From the NCBI GenBank assembly GCA_000004985.1, contig GG738874.1: 64,000 bases of DNA; one strand, written 5' to 3'. The DNA is from Naegleria gruberi. Taxonomy: Eukaryota. Under the pieces are notes generated by a model. The model made no database searches, was not told where the DNA came from, and saw only the letters and a list, made by a program, of their open reading frames with translations. The position numbers and the translations under genes were made by a program. Shown here piece after piece: positions 30 to 50,728 of the stretch. Position 1 is the stretch's first letter. Each line of letters opens with the position of its first letter.

Positions 30-1988
30 GTGGACAAAATTCAAGACACAACAATACCATTACATTTATTTATGGAATATCCAGTCAATAGTGAAGAATT
101 AGAATTCCAAGATTTATCGTTTACTTACCAACCAAATCTCTCCAACGCAAGATCTCTCTATTTTTTGAGATTTGTCCTTTTGGAAACTGTGGATAAGGTT
201 GATAAGGTTGTAAATTTCTGTGACAGCTGTAATTTTATGATAGTATCTCCAAGTAACAAGAAGAAGAAGAGTACTTCTTCACAACCAACACCTACAATTC
301 AGCACAATACTACTATACCGCCTGCTACTTCGACAACACCAACACTTCCTTCTCTCCCTCAAAATAATGTTTCATCCTTAACAAAACCCCCATCTAAGGG
401 AGGTGAGGCCCCAACTGTAGAATTCTTGAAGCGATTAATTTCCACAGCGCCTAAAAAAGAACATTTGAGCCATTGGAATAATTTCATGGTTACTCTTGAT
501 CAATTGAATGTGTATGATGGAAACTTTTTAAAGAAAGCTGAGGACATTTCTGACAGCATCAAGAGGGGAGGAAGATTCTCTGTATATCCTTGCATTGAGC
601 AATGCTGCCCTTCTTTTGGACCAATCAGAGGAGGAATACAAGTTAGCATTAACGTGAAAGATTTAGATGTTTATGATGAAGATGATTTATCAATTTTTAT
701 TGATGATATCAAGATTTCAAAGAAGGATATCACTTCTATACGACCAACTAAAATAGAATTTTATTTACCTGCACTGAAAGGATCACGTATTCCAGGCCAA
801 GTAGATGTTTCTATTTCTGTAGATAATGGATTTGAATGCTATTCTCATGTATTGTACAATTCTTTTGAATACGTCCTTGATGAGGAATTTGAAAAGAGGA
901 AGGGTACTATTCCTATGAAGGAAAGATCAGCTACTGGTCTTGTACAAGTTGTTACTATCAAGCCAATCAATGGTACAGCAGAAACTAATGAAGAAGAATA
1001 CGGAGATATCAACGAAAAAATGGATATCTATAATGGAGAATCTTGTCAATACAGTTCATGTATCCACTTTGAACGTGGATATTTGGATAGCTCAAAGTTA
1101 GATCCAAAACAAAGGTTCATGTGGGTTCTTCGCAGAGCTGATTCTGAGAGTCTCTATGGTTCTCAAGTTGCTAATGAAGATCACGCAGGTGTAATATTGA
1201 GAGGTGAAGCGATACTTAACAAGACAAAGATGGCAGACATTTTGGAAATGTGTTTTGAAATTGATAGAAGAATATCAAGTGAAAAGCTTGGAGTTGCAAT
1301 GAGTTTGCAACTTTTTGATAGAGAGACAAAGAAATACCTGTATACATCTAAGGCACTTCACATTCTTACCAGACCACCAAAGCCAGTCCAATACAGCAGT
1401 TTCAATGAAGACGAACGTGTTCTTCAACTTTTAGATAAGATCAAAACAAGAAAGAGAAGACGTGGCAGAAATGCTATTGCCTTTGATCCTAACTTGAACT
1501 CCCTAGGCCAGCCAATGACACATGCACTCTGCCTTTCAGATAATGAAGTTGAAATTCAAAAATCATTCCAACAATTCCATTTGGAAGTGAATGACCAATT
1601 TTCCAGAAGTCCTTTCCACTTGGCTTTTGCTGCAGGAAATTTGAATGCTGTAAAATTCTTTATGGAAAAGATTGCAGTCTCTCCTCACATTTATTTATTC
1701 CAGAGAGATTGTTATAATCAAACACCTTTCCATCTTGCGTTCAAGTTTTACAGGACTAAATTCCTGGTTGAGTGTTGCGCATTCCTTAAAGAAAAACTTG
1801 ATAAGTCAACAAATAGGAATGAAAATTCTCAAAATGTTGATATCTCTCCAACTGTCCAACAGAAACAAGATAAAAAGAGAAAAACACCTTCATCATCCAA
1901 TGAAACAACCAAACGAACCAAAGTTGAAGTCATCAGTTCCTCTGACGATGAGGAAGAAACCAGTCTCCACCTGCAAGATGATGAATAA
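30..1988 (+). CDS. IPT/TIG-domain plus ankyrin-repeat protein (possible transcription factor). The reading frame is open to the window edge, so the 5' end may lie upstream.
   Basis: Single 652-aa ORF. A TIG-like beta-sandwich segment (SVYPCIEQCCPSFGPIRGGIQVSINVKDLDV...) is followed by ANK-like repeats (FHLAFAAGNLNAVKFF; TPFHLAFKFY) and an acidic/Ser-rich tail. There is no stop codon in frame between position 3 and the ATG at 30. Confidence 0.5.
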   Translation: MDKIQDTTIPLHLFMEYPVNSEELEFQDLSFTYQPNLSNARSLYFLRFVLLETVDKVDKVVNFCDSCNFMIVSPSNKKKKSTSSQPTPTIQHNTTIPPATSTTPTLPSLPQNNVSSLTKPPSKGGEAPTVEFLKRLISTAPKKEHLSHWNNFMVTLDQLNVYDGNFLKKAEDISDSIKRGGRFSVYPCIEQCCPSFGPIRGGIQVSINVKDLDVYDEDDLSIFIDDIKISKKDITSIRPTKIEFYLPALKGSRIPGQVDVSISVDNGFECYSHVLYNSFEYVLDEEFEKRKGTIPMKERSATGLVQVVTIKPINGTAETNEEEYGDINEKMDIYNGESCQYSSCIHFERGYLDSSKLDPKQRFMWVLRRADSESLYGSQVANEDHAGVILRGEAILNKTKMADILEMCFEIDRRISSEKLGVAMSLQLFDRETKKYLYTSKALHILTRPPKPVQYSSFNEDERVLQLLDKIKTRKRRRGRNAIAFDPNLNSLGQPMTHALCLSDNEVEIQKSFQQFHLEVNDQFSRSPFHLAFAAGNLNAVKFFMEKIAVSPHIYLFQRDCYNQTPFHLAFKFYRTKFLVECCAFLKEKLDKSTNRNENSQNVDISPTVQQKQDKKRKTPSSSNETTKRTKVEVISSSDDEEETSLHLQDDE

Positions 1989-18941: not shown

Positions 18942-20011
18942 TTAATCTTTCTTTTCTTTTCTTTCAATAAATTCACAACACAAAATGAACTTTAAAATTC
19001 TGAGAACGAATACTAAAATTACAATAGCAATCCACAAACCAAGTGATGCCAAATATCCAACAATATACTTGGTTGGATAGTATTCACAATCTTTGTAACT
19101 GTAATTGAATCCATCAGCAGACTTTTCAATTTCAAACAAACCAACATTACCACCAAAATCACCTTGAATTGATTTAACTGTAAATTCTTGAGCTCCTTCC
19201 TTGTGTGTATATTTACAACCAAAGTGATCATGACCATTGAAAATATATTTTGGTTTGAGTTGAGTAAGGATAACTTGTGATGTCTTTGGAGTTAAAAAGT
19301 TTTGCTCAATTGNNNNNNNNNNNNNNNNNNNNNNNNNNNNNNNNNNNNNNNNNNNNNNNNNNCCATACTGTTAATGGTTACAGCCAAAACCTTCCTATTT
19401 CCATTTTCATAAATGATATCTTTTCTATTTTGAACTCCAAAACTAGCAATAAATCTTTGAATTCTAAAGAAATTAGCTTCAAAACCATAACCAATATCAT
19501 GATTACCAGTTAAATTAACCAAATATGGGAAGTTTAAATTACGTAAATCAGAAGAACCTCTCTCTTTTACCATTCTTTGTTCTTCATGTAAATCTCCACT
19601 TCTCATCTTGAATATTCTATTCACAAAACCAAACATTCCAGAAAAGATTGAATTAAATCTATCAACTCTCAAATAAAATTCCTGATTAGAAACGTGTTGA
19701 GATGAGAATAAATCACCCAACATGTAAATTGCATCCGGTCTCAACAAGTAATGAATATTTTGGAATACCAATTTAAAATAATAATCGTTAAAGTAATTAT
19801 TGAGCAATCCATAATTTCCCTGATGATAAACTTTTGTATCTCCTTCCATTTGTGGATCCGCAATCATGGCAATTCTTCTTGAATTACTTTTTGACCAATG
19901 ACAACTCAATGGTGAAAAAGCCATATAACTTGTCATGTACATTAGAGACAAGCAATAAATTAAAGAAACAATCAGGATAAATTTAAAGCATCCCGAAGTT
20001 GTTGTTGACAT
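18942..20011 (-). CDS. Metallophosphoesterase of the MPPE1/CDC1 (PGAP5-like) type, interrupted by a 50-N assembly gap
   Basis: Blocks IAMIADPQMEGD, YMLGDLFS, LTGNHDIGYG and, past the gap, YIFNGHDHFGCKY followed by a C-terminal transmembrane segment. The reading frame differs on the two sides of the N run, which is expected if the gap length is arbitrary. Confidence 0.6.
19313..19362. other. Assembly gap (50 N)
   Basis: A literal run of n in the sequence. Confidence 0.95.
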
Positions 20012-25739: not shown

Positions 25740-26853
25740 TCTTCTTCTTTTGTTGAACATTGATGAAAGCATGATCTGGATGCTTCCAACCTAATAAGCC
25801 TCTCCAAATCCACTTGTACAAGTACGGCAACACAAGATATGGCTGATGACATCAATATGACAATTAAATATTAATAATAATTATCATCATACAGGAAGAA
25901 AGAATTTAAATATTAAATTATTGTTAATAATACACTTACCACAGAGATCAAGCACCAATAAGACCAAATCTCATGGAAAACACCAATACTAACCGAGACA
26001 ACCAAACTAATTAACCATCCACTCAAAACACCAATTCCTAACACTCTATTGGAGATGAACCAATCCTTATCATCATGAACTCTAAAGAAGTGAGGCAATA
26101 CTGTAATAAGCAACCAAGTTCCCCAGTGAGGCAAATAACCCCACAGTTGATGATATGGGAACATCCCTATTATCATTTCAATGATCCAAGAAGTAATAAG
26201 AAGTTATGATAAATTTGGAATCTTAGTAAAACCAATTAATTTGAATAATACTTACAGTACAAGTGATTTGGACCTTGATAGGAACACATTGATGATCCAA
26301 CATTTTGAATTGGAATATTATTCACCCTAGATTCAGTTCCATAACCATCGGAAGTAATTTCAACAGATTTTGGAGAGGTACCAAACTTTGTTAATAATTC
26401 ATTGGCACTCATATGATTAGTATTTGGGCCATGTCCCATCATTTGATTGTAACCCATATACAAGGCAATTGTAGAAATAATAAGACAAATCAGGGATGCA
26501 ACAATGGCAAATCTAAAGACCGATCTAGATTTTAAAGTATGGTTAAGACACCAATAGTTTTGAACCAATGGTTGAATCCAAACTAAAAAGTGAGCAACAA
26601 TGGTTAAATTCTTATTACTTTCACTATTACAGGAATCGACTAAACCATAGTAATATTGGAAAAATTGGAGTGCTTCCATGAGAGCATAAGTCAAGTAGAG
26701 GAACACTTGAGAAAGTTGAGCAACTTTCGATTTAGCAGAAGGCAATCTTCTCAACTGGTCCATGGTCATGATAAAACCAAGACATGAGAAGGTAAACGAG
26801 CTTTTCATAGACCAACACATTTTTTCTTTTATTGAAGTAATAAGCATAATCAT
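25740..26853 (-). CDS. Multi-pass membrane protein in 3 or more exons; family not recognised
   Basis: Hydrophobic ORF segments lie at 26853-26236 and 26176-25913, with a further in-frame piece near 25850-25740. They are separated by GT...AG intervals. Confidence 0.35.
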
Positions 26854-28854: not shown

Positions 28855-29964
28855 ATGTTCAGGTTTTTGTTGATCTTGACTCTTTTCCTCGTCATCATCC
28901 AACAAGCTTTACTTGTTTCAGCTGATTCTTCTTCCATTTCGTCTATCAGTTTCGTCCCAACAAGAGAAGAAACTCTCAAAGAATACACCTTTCCAACACA
29001 ACAACAACCAACATCATCATCCAACACACCACCATTCTTCACTCTTTCACCAACTTCCCAACAACAATGCTCCTGTTCTCAATGTTATTGCAATAATGGT
29101 GGATCATGTCCAAAATCAATTCCAGCTCTTGGCTTTACAATTCTTGCAGCAGAGGAAAATTGTGGCAACAGAAATCAAGTTCCAAGTATTGGTCTCATCA
29201 ATATTCAATCTACATCCGATAGTAATGGATTTAAATACTATCTTGTCGATGAGAATAATAAGAATAAGGCAATGAATCTTCAATCATTTCAGTATTCATC
29301 TTATAAGAGTGAAGATAGAGCAATGACATGTGTTACTGATAATTTGGCACCTGTTAGATATCCTTCAACATTGCCAGGAAAAGCATATTTACTTGTATCG
29401 AGTACAAATTTAGTATTGAATACTGAAGTGAGATATAATATTCAAATGTCATGTGCAGTGCCAGAAGCCAAAACTGTTAAAGTTACTGCTGTGAGTCGTG
29501 ATGGTTCAAAGTATTATGTTGGTAAAAAGATGTCATTTAGATTTGAATTCAAAAATGTTTATGACAATATTGACACTTGGCAGAAAGGAACTTTGAGTTT
29601 TGGTGGATTTACTGGACAAGTCAATCAAGGAGTGGGTAATCTAGATTTTACACCATCTAGTGAGGGTTCTATTTCTCTATCAGTTCTTTATACTCCAGAT
29701 ACTTCTGTTTATGGAAGTGCAAATACCTATAATACTCCTACCATTCAAGTTTCTCAAGCTCCTGTTCCAGATGCAGTTTGGTCTTTATGGGATTGGATTA
29801 TTAGTAATCAGAGGAATGCAATTTTTGCAATTATCATTTTGTGTGGTATTGTAATTGGTGTCGTATTGACATGTTGCATTTGTACATGTATTATTTGTAG
29901 AAGAAGAAGAAATAGAGCTAATAGTGAGGAGAGAGGAATTAAATTGCAAGATGAGGAGGCATAA
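28855..29964 (+). CDS. Type I membrane glycoprotein, Ser/Thr/Cys-rich
   Basis: 369-aa ORF with a signal peptide, a mucin-like S/T/Q region, one C-terminal transmembrane segment (IFAIIILCGIVIGVVLTCCICTCII) and a short basic cytoplasmic tail. Confidence 0.5.
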   Translation: MFRFLLILTLFLVIIQQALLVSADSSSISSISFVPTREETLKEYTFPTQQQPTSSSNTPPFFTLSPTSQQQCSCSQCYCNNGGSCPKSIPALGFTILAAEENCGNRNQVPSIGLINIQSTSDSNGFKYYLVDENNKNKAMNLQSFQYSSYKSEDRAMTCVTDNLAPVRYPSTLPGKAYLLVSSTNLVLNTEVRYNIQMSCAVPEAKTVKVTAVSRDGSKYYVGKKMSFRFEFKNVYDNIDTWQKGTLSFGGFTGQVNQGVGNLDFTPSSEGSISLSVLYTPDTSVYGSANTYNTPTIQVSQAPVPDAVWSLWDWIISNQRNAIFAIIILCGIVIGVVLTCCICTCIICRRRRNRANSEERGIKLQDEEA

Positions 29965-30093: not shown

Positions 30094-30330
30094 ATGCCTC
30101 AACAATTATTTATTAAAACCTTGACCGGAAAGACACTCTCTGTTGTAGTTGAATCACATGATACAGTTGAGAATATGAAATTTCAACTTGAAGAAAATGA
30201 GGGAATTTGCTGGGATGCTCAACGATTAATTTGGTTAGGAAAGGAGTTGGAGCATGGAGTACCGGTTAGGGATATTAATTTTAGCAAAGAAACTACCTTG
30301 CATTTGGTTTTATCTCTGTGGGGTGGTTAA
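30094..30330 (+). CDS. Divergent ubiquitin-like protein of 78 aa ending LSLWGG-stop
   Basis: [78 protein letters not shown] aligns with ubiquitin from end to end. L8, the I44/G47/K48 context and H68 are kept. R72 and R74 are replaced by S and W. Confidence 0.7.
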
Positions 30331-30426
30331 AATGTTGGTGACAATTTTCTATTCGAAACCTTTCCTCCATGAACTTGTTCTTTGTTGTAAACCAATAAAA
30401 AAAATAGCAAACACATCCCATGGTAA

Positions 30427-30663
30427 ATGCCTCACCAATTGTTCATTAAAACTCTGACTGGCAAACTCATCACCATTGCTGTGGATATGAACGATACAGT
30501 GGAAAATGTCAAGTTACAAATTCAAGATCGGGAAGGAATTTATTGGGATCAGCAAAGGTTGATTTATGCTGGAAAGGATATGGAACATGGTACAACAATG
30601 GGACAATACTGTTTTTATAAAGAAATTTGTATTCATTTGGTGTTGAGATTGAGAGGAGGATAA
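30427..30663 (+). CDS. Divergent ubiquitin-like protein of 78 aa ending LRLRGG-stop
   Basis: [78 protein letters not shown]. About half the positions are identical to ubiquitin. K6, K11, K27, K48, K63, I44, H68 and the LRLRGG tail are conserved. Confidence 0.75.
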
Positions 30664-30786: not shown

Positions 30787-31452
30787 ATGTTGAATTTGTA
30801 TAAAAAAATGAGTGAATTAGATACAGAGCCGGTAATGATGCCACTGCTCACTCCAATCGGGGAATGTGATTTTGTGATAGAGAAGAGTAAATTGGGGATG
30901 AAGATTATTAATTTATTAGCAGATTTTTCAGAGAGTTTTGTGTATGGAGGATTTGTGAGGGATTTTCTTGTTCGGAGGGAAAAGTTTAATGATTTGGATT
31001 TATTTATTAAAAATTCAAATATTGGTGATGGTGATGATATGGAAAATAATCATAGAGATTCGAAAATTCTAAAAATTAGAAATGAATTTGAGAATAGACT
31101 GAGAGATTGTGAAATGGAAATTGTTTCAATGAAGAATAATAGAGAAACAGTTGACTACTTAATTAAATTTGAAGGGGATTTATTGGAATTGAATGTAATT
31201 TATGAGGATATTGAGAATGATGTTCCAGATTTTGATGTAAATAATTTAAAATTTCAAAATGGAAACATTTCTCAAAGAATTCCTATGGAAAATTGTACAG
31301 TAAATGGAATAGTGGAAAATATTATGAAGAAACAGTGTATTTTATTGGATGAAACATTGGTGAAAGATGAAACTAATTACTACATTAGAAGGAGAATTAA
31401 AAAGATGCAAAAGAAGGGCTGGTTGGTAATGAACATTCCAAACACTAATTAG
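30787..31452 (+). CDS. Minimal class-II (CCA-adding / poly(A)-polymerase head-type) nucleotidyltransferase-like protein, 221 aa
   Basis: FVYGGFVRDFLVRREKFNDLDLFI matches the GGxVRDxLLG...KDxDxx catalytic motif. About 80 aa downstream, PDFDVNNLKF resembles the RDFTINAL motif B. The neck, body and tail domains are absent. Confidence 0.5.
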   Translation: MLNLYKKMSELDTEPVMMPLLTPIGECDFVIEKSKLGMKIINLLADFSESFVYGGFVRDFLVRREKFNDLDLFIKNSNIGDGDDMENNHRDSKILKIRNEFENRLRDCEMEIVSMKNNRETVDYLIKFEGDLLELNVIYEDIENDVPDFDVNNLKFQNGNISQRIPMENCTVNGIVENIMKKQCILLDETLVKDETNYYIRRRIKKMQKKGWLVMNIPNTN

Positions 31453-31867: not shown

Positions 31868-32812
31868 ATGCCAGAAAATAGTATTGATAGCACTCGTCTT
31901 GTTACCCTTCTCTTGGATGACTTTAATGATGAGAACAAGAATAATTATTTATTTTCCAAATTGAAGGAAACAATGCAGAGAAAACTTTTATTGTCAACCG
32001 AGAAATGGCTCCACTCTGTTGTCATTGACATTAATGGAAATTTTGATCGTTTCATTACTGATATTCATCACCCGAATCATTCCTTGTTGTGTTTTAGTCC
32101 AAGAGCTCTCAAATTTCACACTGAAAACAATGAAGCTGTTATCAAAAGATATCATCACAAGACAGGAGATCAATGGATTCATCCACAGCATGGTGTTTTA
32201 TTCGAAGGAGGGTATTTAAGTAATTCTTCAGTTCTGTATCCTCCAGTTGAGTTATTTAATCCAACTGGATTTACTGTATTATTGAGGGCATTTGCTGAGT
32301 CAACTGATAGAGGAGTAATAATCATGTTTGGACGAGGATACAGATGGTTTGGTATTGATCCATTTGGAATTAGTTTGAGCAATGGTGAAAAACATTTCGA
32401 GTTTGCAAATCAATTGAAATTAAGACAGTGGAATGATGTGTGGGTTTCGTATAATAATGTACAATCTCCTGGCACATTTAATGAATCATGTCGTGTCTTT
32501 ACTCACAAGAATTCGAATACAAAGAAGGAAATATTTTGCATTGTGAATGGAAATGAATACCAATTTGAAGTTCCAATCGATAATAGGGTTCTTTCTCTAA
32601 CAGATAATTATTATATAGAAGATGAAATGGGAATGGAATTTATTGATTATTCATGTGCTAATTGCTTTACAGGGTTTTTCTCCAGTTTAGTTTTATTCAA
32701 TCAAAGTTGTAATAGTTTTGATGACTTGAAATTGGTTGCCTCAAACTTTTTGGAAAATCATTCCAAACCAACTGAAACCTATCAAGAAGTATTAAAAGAT
32801 AAATCCAACTAA
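31868..32812 (+). CDS. Hypothetical protein; possible concanavalin-A-like / LamG beta-sandwich
   Basis: 314-aa ORF. The pattern FTVLLRAFAESTDRGVIIMFG...WNDVWVSYNN resembles LamG/pentraxin strands. This is weak. Confidence 0.35.
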   Translation: MPENSIDSTRLVTLLLDDFNDENKNNYLFSKLKETMQRKLLLSTEKWLHSVVIDINGNFDRFITDIHHPNHSLLCFSPRALKFHTENNEAVIKRYHHKTGDQWIHPQHGVLFEGGYLSNSSVLYPPVELFNPTGFTVLLRAFAESTDRGVIIMFGRGYRWFGIDPFGISLSNGEKHFEFANQLKLRQWNDVWVSYNNVQSPGTFNESCRVFTHKNSNTKKEIFCIVNGNEYQFEVPIDNRVLSLTDNYYIEDEMGMEFIDYSCANCFTGFFSSLVLFNQSCNSFDDLKLVASNFLENHSKPTETYQEVLKDKSN

Positions 32813-47901: not shown

Positions 47902-49199
47902 ATGCCCAATAATCAGCAGTTTAGAGCAATTCCTTCATCTTCATCACGAGCACTCGACATTTCTTCATCTACAGATCAAATACTTAACGGAGATTCGAAT
48001 AACAAGTTTCCAACAAGAGATTGTACCTCCTCAAACAGTACATCCACAACAACTGAAGATTATTCAGGGGAAGATGGTGCTGACTATCAATATGAAGATG
48101 GAGCTCTTCAAGAAGAAACAGAAGAAACTAATGGAGACGAAACTTATTCTAATCTTGATTTGAATACTGTCAAGTTATTTGTTGGACAAATTCCATACTC
48201 TTATGGTGAAGATAATTTATATCCATTATTTTCACAATTTGGTCCAGTTGCTGAAATTGTTGTGATTAGAGACAGATTTACATTCAAGTCAAGAGGATGT
48301 GCTTTCGTCTCATTTCGTAGTAAGCAAGATGCGGACACATGCATTAGAGAACTCAATCAAAGATTGAAACTGCCACCTGTAAGTATATTTGATATGTGAT
48401 AATTTTAACTTATTCGAATGGTTTCAATTGAACACCTTTTTTATTCGAAACTTAGTTAAATACCCCTCTCAGAGTTAAATATGCCTACACTGAGCAACAA
48501 TTAGATATTGTTAATGATAATTTTGTAAATAATGCTCCAAATCTAACTACTTCATCCTCGCCTAATGATTCCAATAGTGAAAAATCTCAAGATTTGACAA
48601 TTGCCTCAAATTTCCTCTCCTGTCTCAATATAGATAAGTATGAAATTGGCGTGCCTCATCCAGAAAACAAGCTCTTTATCAGAAATATTCCAAAGAATGT
48701 TACTGAAGATGAGCTCTCAACTCTATTCGAAAGTTTTGGCGAAATTCTTGACGTTGTCGTATTGAGAACGACCATTCATACTTCAAAGGGATGTGGTTTT
48801 ATCAAATTTACCAATTCAGAATCAGCTGATATGGTCATTAACACCTTCAAGAGAGAAATCATTTCACCAATTCAAGAATATCAACAAGGAGCTCAACAAG
48901 AAGGAACAACTATTGGTGGACCTTCTAATCAAAGATTGGTCGAGTTGACTAACAAGCTCCTAGAGAGTAGTTTCCTTATGAAGGGAGCTATCACTCCTCT
49001 ATTGGTTAGATATGCTGATAAGGATTATGTACCAAGTCAATCAACACAAGATGAACATGTCTATAATTCAACAACTACTGGTGGTCATGATTATCACTCT
49101 ACAAATGGAAATCATGGAGGTCATTACAATCCAAGAAGAAGGAAATCTTATCCATTGTCTTATCATAATAATAATAATAATAGAAGAGGATCCTATCAT
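47902..49199 (+). CDS. CELF/Bruno-like RNA-binding protein with two RRMs. Exon 1 is 47902-48378, the intron is 48379-48455, and exon 2 runs from 48456. The 3' end is lost in the assembly gap.
   Basis: RRM1 is LFVGQIPYSYGEDNLYPLFSQFGPVAEIVVIRDRFTFKSRGCAFVSF. RRM2 is KLFIRNIPKNVTEDELSTLFESFGEILDVVVLRTTIHTSKGCGFIKF. The in-frame join is ...LKLPP|LNTPLRVKYA... Confidence 0.6.
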
Positions 49200-49991
49200 N
49201 NNNNNNNNNNNNNNNNNNNNNNNNNNNNNNNNNNNNNNNNNNNNNNNNNNNNNNNNNNNNNNNNNNNNNNNNNNNNNNNNNNNNNNNNNNNNNNNNNNNN
49301 NNNNNNNNNNNNNNNNNNNNNNNNNNNNNNNNNNNNNNNNNNNNNNNNNNNNNNNNNNNNNNNNNNNNNNNNNNNNNNNNNNNNNNNNNNNNNNNNNNNN
49401 NNNNNNNNNNNNNNNNNNNNNNNNNNNNNNNNNNNNNNNNNNNNNNNNNNNNNNNNNNNNNNNNNNNNNNNNNNNNNNNNNNNNNNNNNNNNNNNNNNNN
49501 NNNNNNNNNNNNNNNNNNNNNNNNNNNNNNNNNNNNNNNNNNNNNNNNNNNNNNNNNNNNNNNNNNNNNNNNNNNNNNNNNNNNNNNNNNNNNNNNNNNN
49601 NNNNNNNNNNNNNNNNNNNNNNNNNNNNNNNNNNNNNNNNNNNNNNNNNNNNNNNNNNNNNNNNNNNNNNNNNNNNNNNNNNNNNNNNNNNNNNNNNNNN
49701 NNNNNNNNNNNNNNNNNNNNNNNNNNNNNNNNNNNNNNNNNNNNNNNNNNNNNNNNNNNNNNNNNNNNNNNNNNNNNNNNNNNNNNNNNNNNNNNNNNNN
49801 NNNNNNNNNNNNNNNNNNNNNNNNNNNNNNNNNNNNNNNNNNNNNNNNNNNNNNNNNNNNNNNNNNNNNNNNNNNNNNNNNNNNNNNNNNNNNNNNNNNN
49901 NNNNNNNNNNNNNNNNNNNNNNNNNNNNNNNNNNNNNNNNNNNNNNNNNNNNNNNNNNNNNNNNNNNNNNNNNNNNNNNNNNNNNNNNNNN
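49200..49991. other. Assembly gap (792 N)
   Basis: A literal run of n. Two convergent genes both run into it. Confidence 0.95.
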
Positions 49992-50464
49992 ATTTCATTT
50001 TCCGATTTCTTCTTGTATACCTTTGATGGAAGACCAATGACAGTTTCCTTTTCCTTATTCCACACTCTGAATTTGCTAAATACTTCTGGATTGCACAAAT
50101 CAGGCATTTGAAGCCCAATTCCTGATGTATATAATGCTCGCAGTGATTCCTTTTGCAATCTCAAGTTTGGTGTAAGTTTTGGATGTTTTTTATCAAATTC
50201 TTTATCGGAATGTTCCAAATATTTATCAATCAATTCAATCATTTCCTCCTCAGTACAACAAGTTTTCTTTACTCTAATATCTGCACCGAAAATTTGTTCG
50301 TGAATATAAAGATATCTCTTGAATGTTGGCACAACTTTAGTATCTCTGATTTGTTTTTGTTCCTTCTTTTTAAAGTCGTGAATACCCTGCTTCTTCATAT
50401 CGATAGCCTTTCGGGATTTTGGATGAACTGGTTTGGTGGTTGTGGCGTTTGCTCCTTTGGTCAT
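49992..50464 (-). CDS. tma16: TMA16 (translation-machinery-associated protein 16) homologue. The C-terminus is lost in the gap.
   Basis: MTKGANATTTKPVHPKSRKAIDMKKQGIHDFKKKEQK matches the TMA16 N-terminus HPYSRKAAQI..HKQEKKEK. EEMIELIDKYLEH matches TMA16 ACELIERYLNR. GLQMPDLCNPEVFSKFRVWN matches TMA16 [20 protein letters not shown]. The ATG is at 50464. Confidence 0.55.
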
Positions 50465-50728
50465 TTTTTTTTTGAACTTCAAATAAAAAAATTTTCTTGT
50501 ATTTTTGATGATGAATTGTTATGCAAGCAAGAATTGCCTTCGGATTCGAGATGCTTTTCAATTTAGAGATGAATTTCTTTAATATTGGAGAGATGGATTG
50601 TTGTTGGAGGTGAGTGGAAGAGAAAATTATGCACTTGTCAATTTAATTTTGTTGTAAGAGGTTCAACAATGGAGAGAGTTAATAGCACTGTGTCGAGACA
50701 TTTTGTGATCAAAAAAGCTTTAAAAAAA
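50465..50728. promoter_or_regulatory. Divergent intergenic region between tma16 (- strand) and the Ubc7-like gene (+ strand); a putative bidirectional promoter
   Basis: About 260 bp with a T10 tract, lying between two start codons that face away from each other. Confidence 0.3.

What the first reader, a model, noticed from the sequence alone, without database searches (positions are those of the whole stretch)
30094..30663. Tandem pair of divergent ubiquitin-like genes, each ending exactly in Gly-Gly followed by a stop codon
Two intronless 78-aa ORFs lie 96 bp apart on the same strand. Both align to ubiquitin over their full length and share an MP(Q/H)[11 protein letters not shown]-terminus. 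Ubl-2 keeps K6, K11, K27, K48, K63, I44, H68 and the LRLRGG tail. Ubl-1 keeps the hydrophobic patch and K48 but ends LSLWGG, so the R72/R74 positions that ubiquitin E1 normally reads are lost. Canonical ubiquitin is invariant across eukaryotes and is encoded as fusions or polymers that need processing. These are free-standing, divergent genes that would be translated as already-mature GG-terminated proteins. They look like a lineage-specific ubiquitin-like modifier family, or interfering ubiquitin variants, rather than ubiquitin or NEDD8. The Ubl-1 tail suggests it would use a different E1 or none at all.
Basis: partly seen in the sequence, partly recalled or inferred. Interest (0 to 1): 0.75.

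Follow-up and report, generated by a model that had tools for sequence, protein, structure and literature searches.

The report
Two divergent ubiquitin genes in Naegleria
Two neighbouring small genes of the amoeba Naegleria gruberi encode strongly diverged copies of ubiquitin that selection has kept intact and that still end in the Gly-Gly needed for attachment to other proteins. They are real and have no counterpart in the databases searched, but they belong to a well-known kind of protein.

Summary
Two 78-codon ORFs (30094-30330 and 30427-30663, + strand, 96 bp apart) each encode a full-length ubiquitin-fold protein that ends Gly-Gly-stop. The organism is Naegleria gruberi, not a dictyostelid. 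Ubl-2 is already deposited as an unnamed 'predicted protein' (XP_002676015/D2VII4). The exact Ubl-1 sequence is in no database searched.

They are an old tandem duplicate of a ubiquitin-derived gene. They share W38, H52, F61, Q29 and an MP- extension. Synonymous sites are saturated (pS 0.78) while pN is 0.27. All 14 core positions, both hydrophobic patches, K6/11/27/48/63, R42 and GG-stop are kept in both. Codon usage is host-like. AlphaFold gives a beta-grasp fold for both (pLDDT 88-89).

No orthologue was found in 5.8 billion proteins, viral contigs or metagenomes. Nothing in the window suggests a viral island.

Ubl-2 (LRLRGG) should be a Uba1 substrate. Ubl-1 (LSLWGG) lacks R72, which Uba1 strictly requires. 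Published phage display on human enzymes shows the NEDD8 E1 accepts Ser72 and aromatic residues at 74 on a ubiquitin scaffold.

Expression and conjugation are untested. Verdict: genuine lineage-restricted ubiquitin variants, a new member of a known kind, of moderate interest.

The parts
30094..30330 (+). Ubl-1 coding sequence: 78 aa plus TAA, ubiquitin fold, tail LSLWGG. This exact sequence is absent from the protein collection, so it is probably unannotated.
   Evidence: ORF. Pfam PF00240 at 57.6 bits. 56% identity to Ub. AF2 pLDDT 89 with a beta-grasp fold. Foldseek top hits are ubiquitin, TM 0.85-0.89. Not in the collection.
30331..30426 (+). 96-nt A/T-rich spacer between the two genes. It holds the presumed 3' end of Ubl-1 and the promoter/5' UTR of Ubl-2. 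It is not homologous to the sequence upstream of Ubl-1.
   Evidence: Sequence. Flank alignments show no meaningful similarity. Length.
30420..30449 (+). Out-of-frame upstream ATG 7 nt before the Ubl-2 start. It opens a 9-codon uORF (MVNASPIVH*) that overlaps the start codon. It could lower Ubl-2 translation if it lies within the transcript.
   Evidence: Read from the sequence. Its relevance is inferred.
30427..30663 (+). Ubl-2 coding sequence: 78 aa plus TAA, ubiquitin fold, tail LRLRGG. Equals XP_002676015.1 / EFC43271.1 / NAEGRDRAFT_34389 / UniProt D2VII4, 'predicted protein'.
   Evidence: ORF. Exact database match. Pfam PF00240 at 66.6 bits. 63% identity to Ub. AF2 pLDDT 88 with a beta-grasp fold.

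Best explanation
These are two real protein-coding genes of Naegleria gruberi, produced by an old tandem duplication of a gene that had already diverged from ubiquitin. Each is translated directly as a mature ubiquitin-fold protein with a free C-terminal Gly-Gly, so no precursor processing is needed. Both most likely act as conjugatable ubiquitin variants. Ubl-2 (R42, R72, R74, LRLRGG, intact L8-I44-V70 patch, five of the seven lysines) should be adenylated by the ubiquitin E1 (Uba1) and enter the ordinary ubiquitin cascade. There it would give conjugates whose altered surface (Y37-W38, H52, loss of R54, K29Q, K33R, changed 54-66 region) is read differently by receptors and deubiquitinases. 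Ubl-1 (S72, W74) should be rejected by Uba1. It most plausibly enters through the NEDD8 E1, or binds it and acts as a competitor. What is shown: gene integrity, ubiquitin ancestry, purifying selection, predicted fold, and retention of the conjugation-relevant residues. What is inferred: transcription, E1 choice, conjugation and biological role.
For: Integrity and selection. The two copies differ at 28/15/45 first/second/third codon positions. pS = 0.78 (saturated), pN = 0.27, and pN/pS = 0.35 with a bootstrap CI of 0.24-0.50. The chance of 78 stop-free codons at local base composition is 0.0015. Codon-usage log-likelihood is 0.37-0.38 per codon in frame, like nine host ORFs of the window (0.28-0.48), and no higher than 0.08 in the other frames. 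The Gly-Gly-stop is kept in both although the Gly codons differ (GGT GGT against GGA GGA).

Common origin after divergence from ubiquitin. Both share L3, I5, V23, Q29, W38, H52, F61 and the MP- extension. W38, H52 and F61 occur in none of the 55 nearest database ubiquitin variants.

Fold and function surface. All 14 core positions are hydrophobic in both. L8/I44/H68/V70, I36/L71/L73, K6/11/27/48/63, R42 and G75-G76 are kept in both. AF2 gives pLDDT 89 and 88 with beta-grasp topology. The Ubl-1 model matches ubiquitin structures at TM 0.85-0.89.

E1 logic. Phage display on human enzymes shows that UAE retains Arg72 in every selected clone. NAE accepts Ala/Leu/Val and, less often, Ser or Gln at 72, and both E1s favour aromatic residues at 71, 73 and 74 (PMC3731359). 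R72 and R74 are 55/55 in the nearest ubiquitin variants, so the Ubl-1 tail is a real departure.

Precedent. Human UBBP4 encodes ubiquitin variants that are conjugated to specific targets (PMC7066184).
Against: There is no evidence of transcription or protein. No paper or searchable supplement mentions the locus. Ubl-1 is absent from the deposited gene set. No orthologue was found in any searched collection, so selection is inferred from a single paralogue comparison and could have lapsed recently in one copy. An out-of-frame ATG lies 7 nt upstream of the Ubl-2 start. Non-native residues at position 74 blocked E2-to-E3 transfer in the human ubiquitin cascade (PMC3731359), so Ubl-1 may be activated without ever reaching substrates. 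The E1 data come from human enzymes, not Naegleria enzymes.
Confidence: 0.55

Rival explanations
1. They are expressed ubiquitin-fold proteins that are not conjugated to substrates and act as interfering or decoy variants. Examples are occupying an E1 or E2 (Ubl-1 on the NEDD8 E1/Ubc12), capping chains, or titrating ubiquitin-binding domains or deubiquitinases.
For: Peptides and Ub variants with non-native C-terminal tails load onto NAE and Ubc12 and block NEDD8 transfer. Non-native residue 74 blocks E2-to-E3 transfer of Ub (PMC3731359). The Ubl-1 tail is S72/W74, whereas R72/R74 are invariant in the 55 nearest Ub variants.
Against: GG-stop is strictly maintained in both copies despite synonymous turnover, and the acceptor lysines and recognition patches are retained. 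This is what selection for full passage through a cascade would produce. Ubl-2 has a fully canonical LRLRGG tail.
Confidence: 0.2
2. One or both ORFs are silent relics: duplicated monoubiquitin genes that are no longer expressed, with an open reading frame that merely survives.
For: Ubl-1 is not in the deposited N. gruberi protein set. There are no orthologues and no expression record was found. There is an out-of-frame upstream ATG at Ubl-2. Ubiquitin pseudogenes are abundant in many genomes (PMC7066184).
Against: Synonymous sites are saturated while amino-acid change is restrained and conservative. All 14 core residues are hydrophobic in both. The stop-free probability is 0.0015 per ORF under neutrality. 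Codon usage is host-like in frame only. Models are confident. There is no poly(A) tail, target-site repeat or other retrocopy mark in the flanks.
Confidence: 0.15
3. The pair was acquired from a giant virus (many encode ubiquitin) and sits in a remnant of an endogenised viral element.
For: The only word-index hit of Ubl-1 was a Marseillevirus ubiquitin at 63% identity. ORF 26236..26853 matches Pfam DUF5765 above threshold, and the downstream ORF weakly matches DUF5769. From memory, these families were built on giant-virus proteins.
Against: Viral ubiquitins in IMG/VR are no closer (56-60% to Ubl-1, about 63% to Ubl-2) than cellular ubiquitin. The family signature is absent from viral contigs. 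The two neighbouring ORFs have no relatives in viral contigs. Codon usage is host-like. The rest of the window is ordinary eukaryotic housekeeping DNA: eIF2-alpha kinase, RPL18A, TPR/Mlp, SNF2, ammonium transporter, RRM, cyclin, SacI.
Confidence: 0.05

Closest known systems
Ubiquitin (canonical, PF00240)
   Same: Beta-grasp fold, length, hydrophobic core, L8-I44-V70 and I36 patches, K6/K11/K27/K48/K63, R42, C-terminal GG. Ubl-2 also has the LRLRGG tail.
   Different: Only 56-63% identical, where ubiquitin is almost invariant. Two-residue MP- N-terminal extension. P37-P38 replaced by (C/Y)W, D52H, R54 lost, K29Q, and Cys and Trp present. Encoded as stand-alone genes ending at GG rather than as ribosomal-protein fusions or polymers. 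No concerted evolution between the copies (62% nucleotide identity).
NEDD8 / Rub1
   Same: A ubiquitin paralogue about 55-60% identical to Ub with a GG end. A small uncharged residue at position 72 (Ala in NEDD8, Ser in Ubl-1) is what lets a protein avoid Uba1 and fit the NEDD8 E1 (PMC3731359).
   Different: Only 39-46% identical to human NEDD8 and yeast Rub1, which is less than to ubiquitin. Ubl-2 has R72. Ubl-1 has W74 where NEDD8 has R74. The shared derived residues show descent from a ubiquitin-like ancestor, not from NEDD8.
Human ubiquitin variants from UBB pseudogene 4 (UbKEKS)
   Same: A ubiquitin-derived gene copy outside the canonical loci that encodes a variant with intact GG, is conjugated to a distinct target set, and has non-degradative consequences (PMC7066184). 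This is the closest functional analogy for Ubl-2.
   Different: UbKEKS differs from ubiquitin at 4 positions. The Naegleria proteins differ at 28-33 of 76 and have been separate long enough to saturate synonymous sites. UbKEKS is supported by RNA and protein data, and these genes are not.
Divergent ubiquitins of protists (e.g. RPS27a- and RPL40-fused ubiquitin in Plasmodium and other protists)
   Same: They show that ubiquitin copies can escape extreme conservation in particular lineages (PMC10457151).
   Different: Those are the ubiquitin moieties of ribosomal-protein fusion genes and are cleaved from a precursor. The Naegleria genes are unfused and need no cleavage.
Engineered ubiquitin C-terminal variants selected on the NEDD8 E1 (phage display)
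   Same: A ubiquitin scaffold with non-Arg residue 72 (including Ser), aromatic residues at 71/73/74, and retained GG. The Ubl-1 tail LSLWGG fits this profile.
   Different: Those variants are artificial, carry wild-type ubiquitin bodies and were tested on human NAE. Ubl-1 is natural, with a much-changed body, and is untested.

Membership tests
Ubiquitin family (Pfam PF00240, beta-grasp ubiquitin-like modifiers) | Sequence match to the family profile above the curated threshold | tested here: met
   57.6 bits (Ubl-1) and 66.6 bits (Ubl-2) against a cut-off of 25.4, covering profile positions 1-70 and 1-72 of 72.
Ubiquitin family (Pfam PF00240, beta-grasp ubiquitin-like modifiers) | Beta-grasp fold | tested here: met
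   AF2 models have pLDDT 89.0 and 88.1 with beta-beta-alpha-beta-beta topology. For Ubl-1, the Foldseek top 50 are all ubiquitin chains or ubiquitin variants, typically at TM 0.8-0.89. The fold is predicted, not solved.
Ubiquitin family (Pfam PF00240, beta-grasp ubiquitin-like modifiers) | Exposed C-terminal Gly-Gly available for adenylation | tested here: met
   Both ORFs end GG followed directly by TAA.
Ubiquitin family (Pfam PF00240, beta-grasp ubiquitin-like modifiers) | ATP-dependent activation by an E1 and covalent attachment to substrates | not testable with these tools
   This needs biochemistry. Only the residue logic could be assessed.
Ubiquitin proper | Near-invariant 76-residue sequence (a few substitutions at most across eukaryotes) | tested here: not met
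   43/76 and 48/76 identical to human ubiquitin, plus a 2-residue N-terminal extension.
Ubiquitin proper | Encoded as head-to-tail polymer or as fusion to ribosomal protein eL40/eS31 | tested here: not met
   Each ORF has its own ATG and its own stop directly after GG. The 96-nt spacer is not coding and I found no plausible GT-AG splice that joins the ORFs in frame (and reading of the sequence).
Ubiquitin proper | Arg72 (with R42) for recognition by Uba1 | tested here: inconclusive
   Ubl-2 has R42, R72 and R74. Ubl-1 has R42 but S72 and W74. So the feature is met by Ubl-2 and not by Ubl-1.
NEDD8 / Rub1 | Closer in sequence to NEDD8 orthologues than to ubiquitin | tested here: not met
   42-46% identity to human NEDD8 and 39-45% to yeast Rub1, against 57-63% to ubiquitin.
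NEDD8 / Rub1 | Uncharged small residue at position 72 (Ala) that excludes Uba1 and fits UBA3 | tested here: inconclusive
   Ubl-1 has Ser72, which human NAE accepts on a Ub scaffold (PMC3731359). Ubl-2 has Arg72. This is a resemblance in one gate residue only.
Processed (retro)pseudogene of ubiquitin | Neutral evolution: dN/dS near 1, disabling mutations, poly(A) remnant or target-site duplications | tested here: not met
   pN/pS is 0.35 (CI 0.24-0.50) with saturated pS. Both ORFs are intact and substitutions are conservative. There is no downstream poly(A) tract or flanking repeat.

The most novel reading that the evidence does not exclude
Ubl-1 is a natural ubiquitin-scaffold protein that has switched E1. 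With S72/W74 it evades Uba1 and is charged by the NEDD8 E1. It would then serve either as a second, lineage-specific cullin/NEDD8-pathway modifier or as an endogenous competitive brake on neddylation. Its tandem partner Ubl-2 stays in the ubiquitin cascade. The pair would then be a snapshot of how a new Ubl pathway branches off ubiquitin by duplication plus a change at the residue-72 gate.
Probability: 0.15. Interest if true: 0.65.

Novelty: new member of a known kind. Interest (0 to 1): 0.35.

Why it matters
Ubiquitin is among the most conserved eukaryotic proteins, so copies that have drifted to about 60% identity while still under selection are natural experiments in which surfaces can change. 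This pair is compact, intronless and easy to express. One member has the canonical tail. The other has lost the Arg72 gate that assigns ubiquitin to its E1, so the two could show directly how E1 specificity shifts after duplication. In practical terms, Ubl-1 appears to be a missed gene in the N. gruberi annotation. Both proteins could also confound ubiquitin proteomics in this organism, because a di-Gly remnant does not identify the modifier. If they turn out to be unexpressed, the finding is only an annotation footnote.

Tried and rejected
1. A profile search of the pair against 1.84 billion cluster representatives was swamped by polyubiquitins, whose multi-repeat scores filled all 150 listed rows. 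It said nothing about orthologues.
2. The word-indexed search with Ubl-1 produced only 2 candidates and one hit, a Marseillevirus ubiquitin. I judged this an artefact of word sharing (DAQRLI), not evidence of viral origin, because viral ubiquitins are no closer than cellular ones.
3. The signature EGI[YC]WDxQRLI gave zero matches in metagenome and viral contigs. The looser GIxWDxQRLI gave 32 loci, of which a few carry unrelated divergent ubiquitin-like domains with IPWD (L015/L021/L036, L018, L033). None is close, and in L033 the GG is followed by further protein.
4. The look-up of encoding contigs could not retrieve any N. gruberi locus. The other divergent N. gruberi ubiquitin-like models (P0010, P0017) could therefore not be examined at the DNA level, and the absence of a gene call at Ubl-1 rests only on the exact-sequence look-up.
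5. Expression evidence was sought by identifier in full texts and in the supplements of three N. gruberi omics papers. Nothing was found or held.
6. I considered splicing the two ORFs into one di-ubiquitin-like product. The only plausible GT...AG pair I found in the spacer puts Ubl-2 out of frame, so I rejected this from reading the sequence.
7. The viral-island idea was checked through the neighbours and rejected.
8. The low-GC block at 48-50 kb proved to be a 792-nt run of N. It is not biology.

Full report
**What is there.** The region holds two ATG-initiated ORFs of 78 codons on the + strand, at 30094..30330 (Ubl-1) and 30427..30663 (Ubl-2), separated by 96 nt. Both end in Gly-Gly followed directly by TAA. 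Both exceed the Pfam gathering score for the ubiquitin family (57.6 and 66.6 bits against 25.4). Both align without gaps to ubiquitin residues 2-76 (56% and 63% identity) and are 56% identical to each other. A tblastn of ubiquitin and of both proteins against the whole window finds only these two places. One detail needs correcting: Ubl-1 keeps K6, K11, K27 and K63 as well as K48.

**Where it comes from.** Exact-sequence look-ups place the window in Naegleria gruberi (a heterolobosean), not a dictyostelid. Ubl-2 is XP_002676015.1 / EFC43271.1 / NAEGRDRAFT_34389 / UniProt D2VII4, named only 'predicted protein'. The upstream ORF is EFC43270 and the ORF starting at 31868 is EFC43273. The exact Ubl-1 sequence is not in the 15-billion-protein collection. 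Because the accessions on either side are consecutive, it was most probably never called as a gene. The rest of the window is ordinary gene-dense eukaryotic DNA: eIF2-alpha kinase, LRR proteins, a spliced RPL18A, a teneurin-like NHL/EGF protein, a short-chain dehydrogenase, TPR/Mlp, an SNF2 helicase, an ammonium transporter, an RRM protein, a cyclin and a SacI phosphatase.

**Are they genes or relics?** The two copies differ at 28, 15 and 45 first, second and third codon positions. The Nei-Gojobori proportions are pS = 0.78, which is saturated, and pN = 0.27. The uncorrected ratio is 0.35, with a bootstrap interval of 0.24-0.50. The duplication is therefore old, and amino-acid change has been restrained throughout most of the time since. 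At local base composition a neutral 78-codon frame would stay open with probability 0.0015. In-frame codon usage matches nine host ORFs of the window (0.37-0.38 against 0.28-0.48 bits per codon), while the other frames score 0.08 or less. The Gly-Gly-stop ending has been held in both copies while the Gly codons themselves changed (GGT GGT against GGA GGA). The flanks are unalignable and show no poly(A) remnant or repeats. This argues strongly against recent retro-pseudogenes. It does not prove present-day expression.

**Ancestry.** Each protein is closer to ubiquitin (57%, 63%) than to NEDD8 or Rub1 (39-46%). They share seven substitutions relative to ubiquitin (I3L, V5I, I23V, K29Q, P38W, D52H, I61F), the loss of P37 and R54, and the two-residue MP- extension. 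W38, H52 and F61 occur in none of the 55 nearest database ubiquitin variants. A single ubiquitin-derived ancestor had thus already diverged before it was duplicated in tandem. Since then the copies have evolved independently, at 62% nucleotide identity and with no concerted evolution.

**Fold and surfaces.** All 14 buried core positions of ubiquitin are hydrophobic in both proteins. The L8-I44-H68-V70 and I36-L71-L73 patches, R42, five lysines (6, 11, 27, 48, 63) and G75-G76 are intact in both. K29 is Q in both, and K33 is N in Ubl-1 and R in Ubl-2. AlphaFold2 with a 57-sequence alignment gives pLDDT 89.0 (Ubl-1) and 88.1 (Ubl-2) with the beta-grasp order of elements. The Ubl-1 model superposes on solved ubiquitin chains at TM 0.85-0.89. 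The changes concentrate in the 37-38 turn, the 52-66 region and the exposed face of the helix.

**Relatives elsewhere.** Searching Ubl-2 against 5.8 billion proteins returns itself and then generic ubiquitin variants at 51-68% identity. Two of these are other odd N. gruberi ubiquitin-like models (P0010, P0017), but no orthologue appears from any other Naegleria. Ubl-1 retrieved only a Marseillevirus ubiquitin at 63%. Giant-virus ubiquitins in IMG/VR are 56-60% identical to Ubl-1 and about 63% to Ubl-2, no closer than cellular ubiquitin. The signature EGI[YC]WDxQRLI is absent from the metagenome and viral collections. A looser pattern found only unrelated divergent ubiquitin-like domains. The exhaustive profile search was uninformative because polyubiquitins filled the list. 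Within what can be searched here, the pair is specific to N. gruberi. Unannotated genomes of other heteroloboseans could not be searched.

**How it most likely works.** Both proteins would be made with a free GG end and need no C-terminal hydrolase. Ubl-2 has every residue known to matter for Uba1 (R42, R72, L73, R74, GG), so it should be activated as ubiquitin is. Its altered surface would make its conjugates a distinguishable signal, as described for the human UBBP4-encoded variants (PMC7066184). Ubl-1 has S72 and W74. Phage display of ubiquitin C-terminal libraries on human enzymes showed three relevant things. Uba1 retained Arg72 in every selected clone. The NEDD8 E1 rejects basic residues at 72 but accepts Ala, Leu, Val and, less often, Ser or Gln. 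Both E1s readily take aromatic residues at 71, 73 and 74 (PMC3731359). On a ubiquitin scaffold, LSLWGG therefore lies within the NEDD8-E1 profile and outside the Uba1 profile. The same work found that non-native residue 74 blocked E2-to-E3 transfer in the ubiquitin cascade, and that such tails can jam the NEDD8 cascade. So Ubl-1 could be either a modifier or a brake. These steps are inference from human enzymes; nothing here tests Naegleria enzymes.

**Rivals.** A non-conjugated or interfering role is plausible mainly for Ubl-1 (0.2). Silent relics cannot be excluded without expression data (0.15). In favour of that reading are the missing annotation of Ubl-1, the lack of orthologues, and an out-of-frame ATG 7 nt upstream of the Ubl-2 start that opens a 9-codon uORF. 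Viral origin (0.05) was suggested by the Marseillevirus hit and by two neighbouring ORFs with DUF5765/DUF5769 matches. However, those ORFs have no relatives in viral contigs, and the downstream one is an orphan. Codon usage is host-like and the neighbourhood is cellular.

**Novelty and score.** These are members of the ubiquitin family by profile, predicted fold and C-terminus. They are not ubiquitin proper, because sequence invariance and gene organisation were tested and not met. They are not NEDD8, because sequence affinity was tested and not met. Divergent ubiquitin copies are known in protists (PMC10457151) and humans (PMC7066184). Database proteins of exactly 76 residues running from Met to GG suggest that stand-alone GG-terminated variants are not unique, although their completeness was not verified. 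One of the two genes is already deposited, though undescribed. No paper mentions it. The new elements are the unannotated partner, the evidence for long-term selection on both, and a natural Arg72-less tail on a ubiquitin scaffold. I rate it as a new member of a known kind with interest 0.35. It would rise to about 0.65 if Ubl-1 proves to be charged by the NEDD8 E1.

Noticed in passing
window 30787..31452 (+): This 221-aa ORF lies 124 bp downstream of Ubl-2 on the same strand. It equals NAEGRDRAFT_80093, whose deposited model starts 7 codons later. It carries a Pol-beta-type nucleotidyltransferase motif (YGGFVRDFL...DLDLF), with sub-threshold Pfam hits to the PolyA_pol head domain and DUF5769. 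No homologue was found among 5.8 billion proteins by the word-indexed search or in viral contigs. It is an orphan small NTase next to the ubiquitin variants, and any functional link is unknown.
   Followed up: partly
window 26236..26853 (-): This 205-aa ORF matches Pfam DUF5765 above threshold (42.6 bits against a cut-off of 25). From memory, that family was built on giant-virus proteins. No relative was found in IMG/VR with the close-relative scan. It could be a trace of virus-host gene exchange in Naegleria.
   Followed up: partly
window 49200..49991 and 19313..19362: These are runs of N, i.e. assembly gaps of 792 and 50 nt. The first explains the apparent GC dip to 0.207 at 48-50 kb and the cluster of overlapping spurious ORFs in several frames at 48594..50482.
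   Followed up: yes
window 28855..29964 (+): This 369-aa ORF (EFC43270, NAEGRDRAFT_68692) lies immediately upstream of Ubl-1. By eye it has a hydrophobic N-terminus that looks like a signal peptide, a Ser/Thr/Gln-rich stretch, and a C-terminal Cys-rich hydrophobic segment followed by RRRR. It has no Pfam match. It appears to be a lineage-specific membrane protein.
   Followed up: no
proteins P0010 and P0017 (N. gruberi, other scaffolds): These are two further N. gruberi 'predicted proteins' made of truncated and complete divergent ubiquitin repeats (MQLFVKTLTGR..., DTVENMK, LIYAGK). They share some of the pair's departures from ubiquitin (L3, V23, M26, Y45). N. gruberi may hold a wider set of ubiquitin variants or mis-modelled variant polyubiquitin genes. 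Their DNA could not be fetched.
   Followed up: partly
L033 73..297 and 1027..1248 (- strand), metagenome contig JACKZZ010022274.1: Two strongly divergent ubiquitin-like domains lie about 730 bp apart...EGIPWDQQRLIFAGK...LNLRGG and ...DVPMWQQRLLFRG...PRLRGG. In both, the reading frame continues past the GG. They are unrelated to the Naegleria pair. They show that clustered divergent ubiquitin-like sequences occur elsewhere.
   Followed up: partly
L015 6665..6949, L021 8419..8703, L036 11367..11651 (metagenome contigs): The same divergent ubiquitin-like gene was recovered three times. It is interrupted after 'TLTG' by an intron-like insert containing a stop, carries IPWD in place of IPPD and G53-Y54, and ends IRLRGG. 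It is probably from a eukaryote and was not identified.
   Followed up: no
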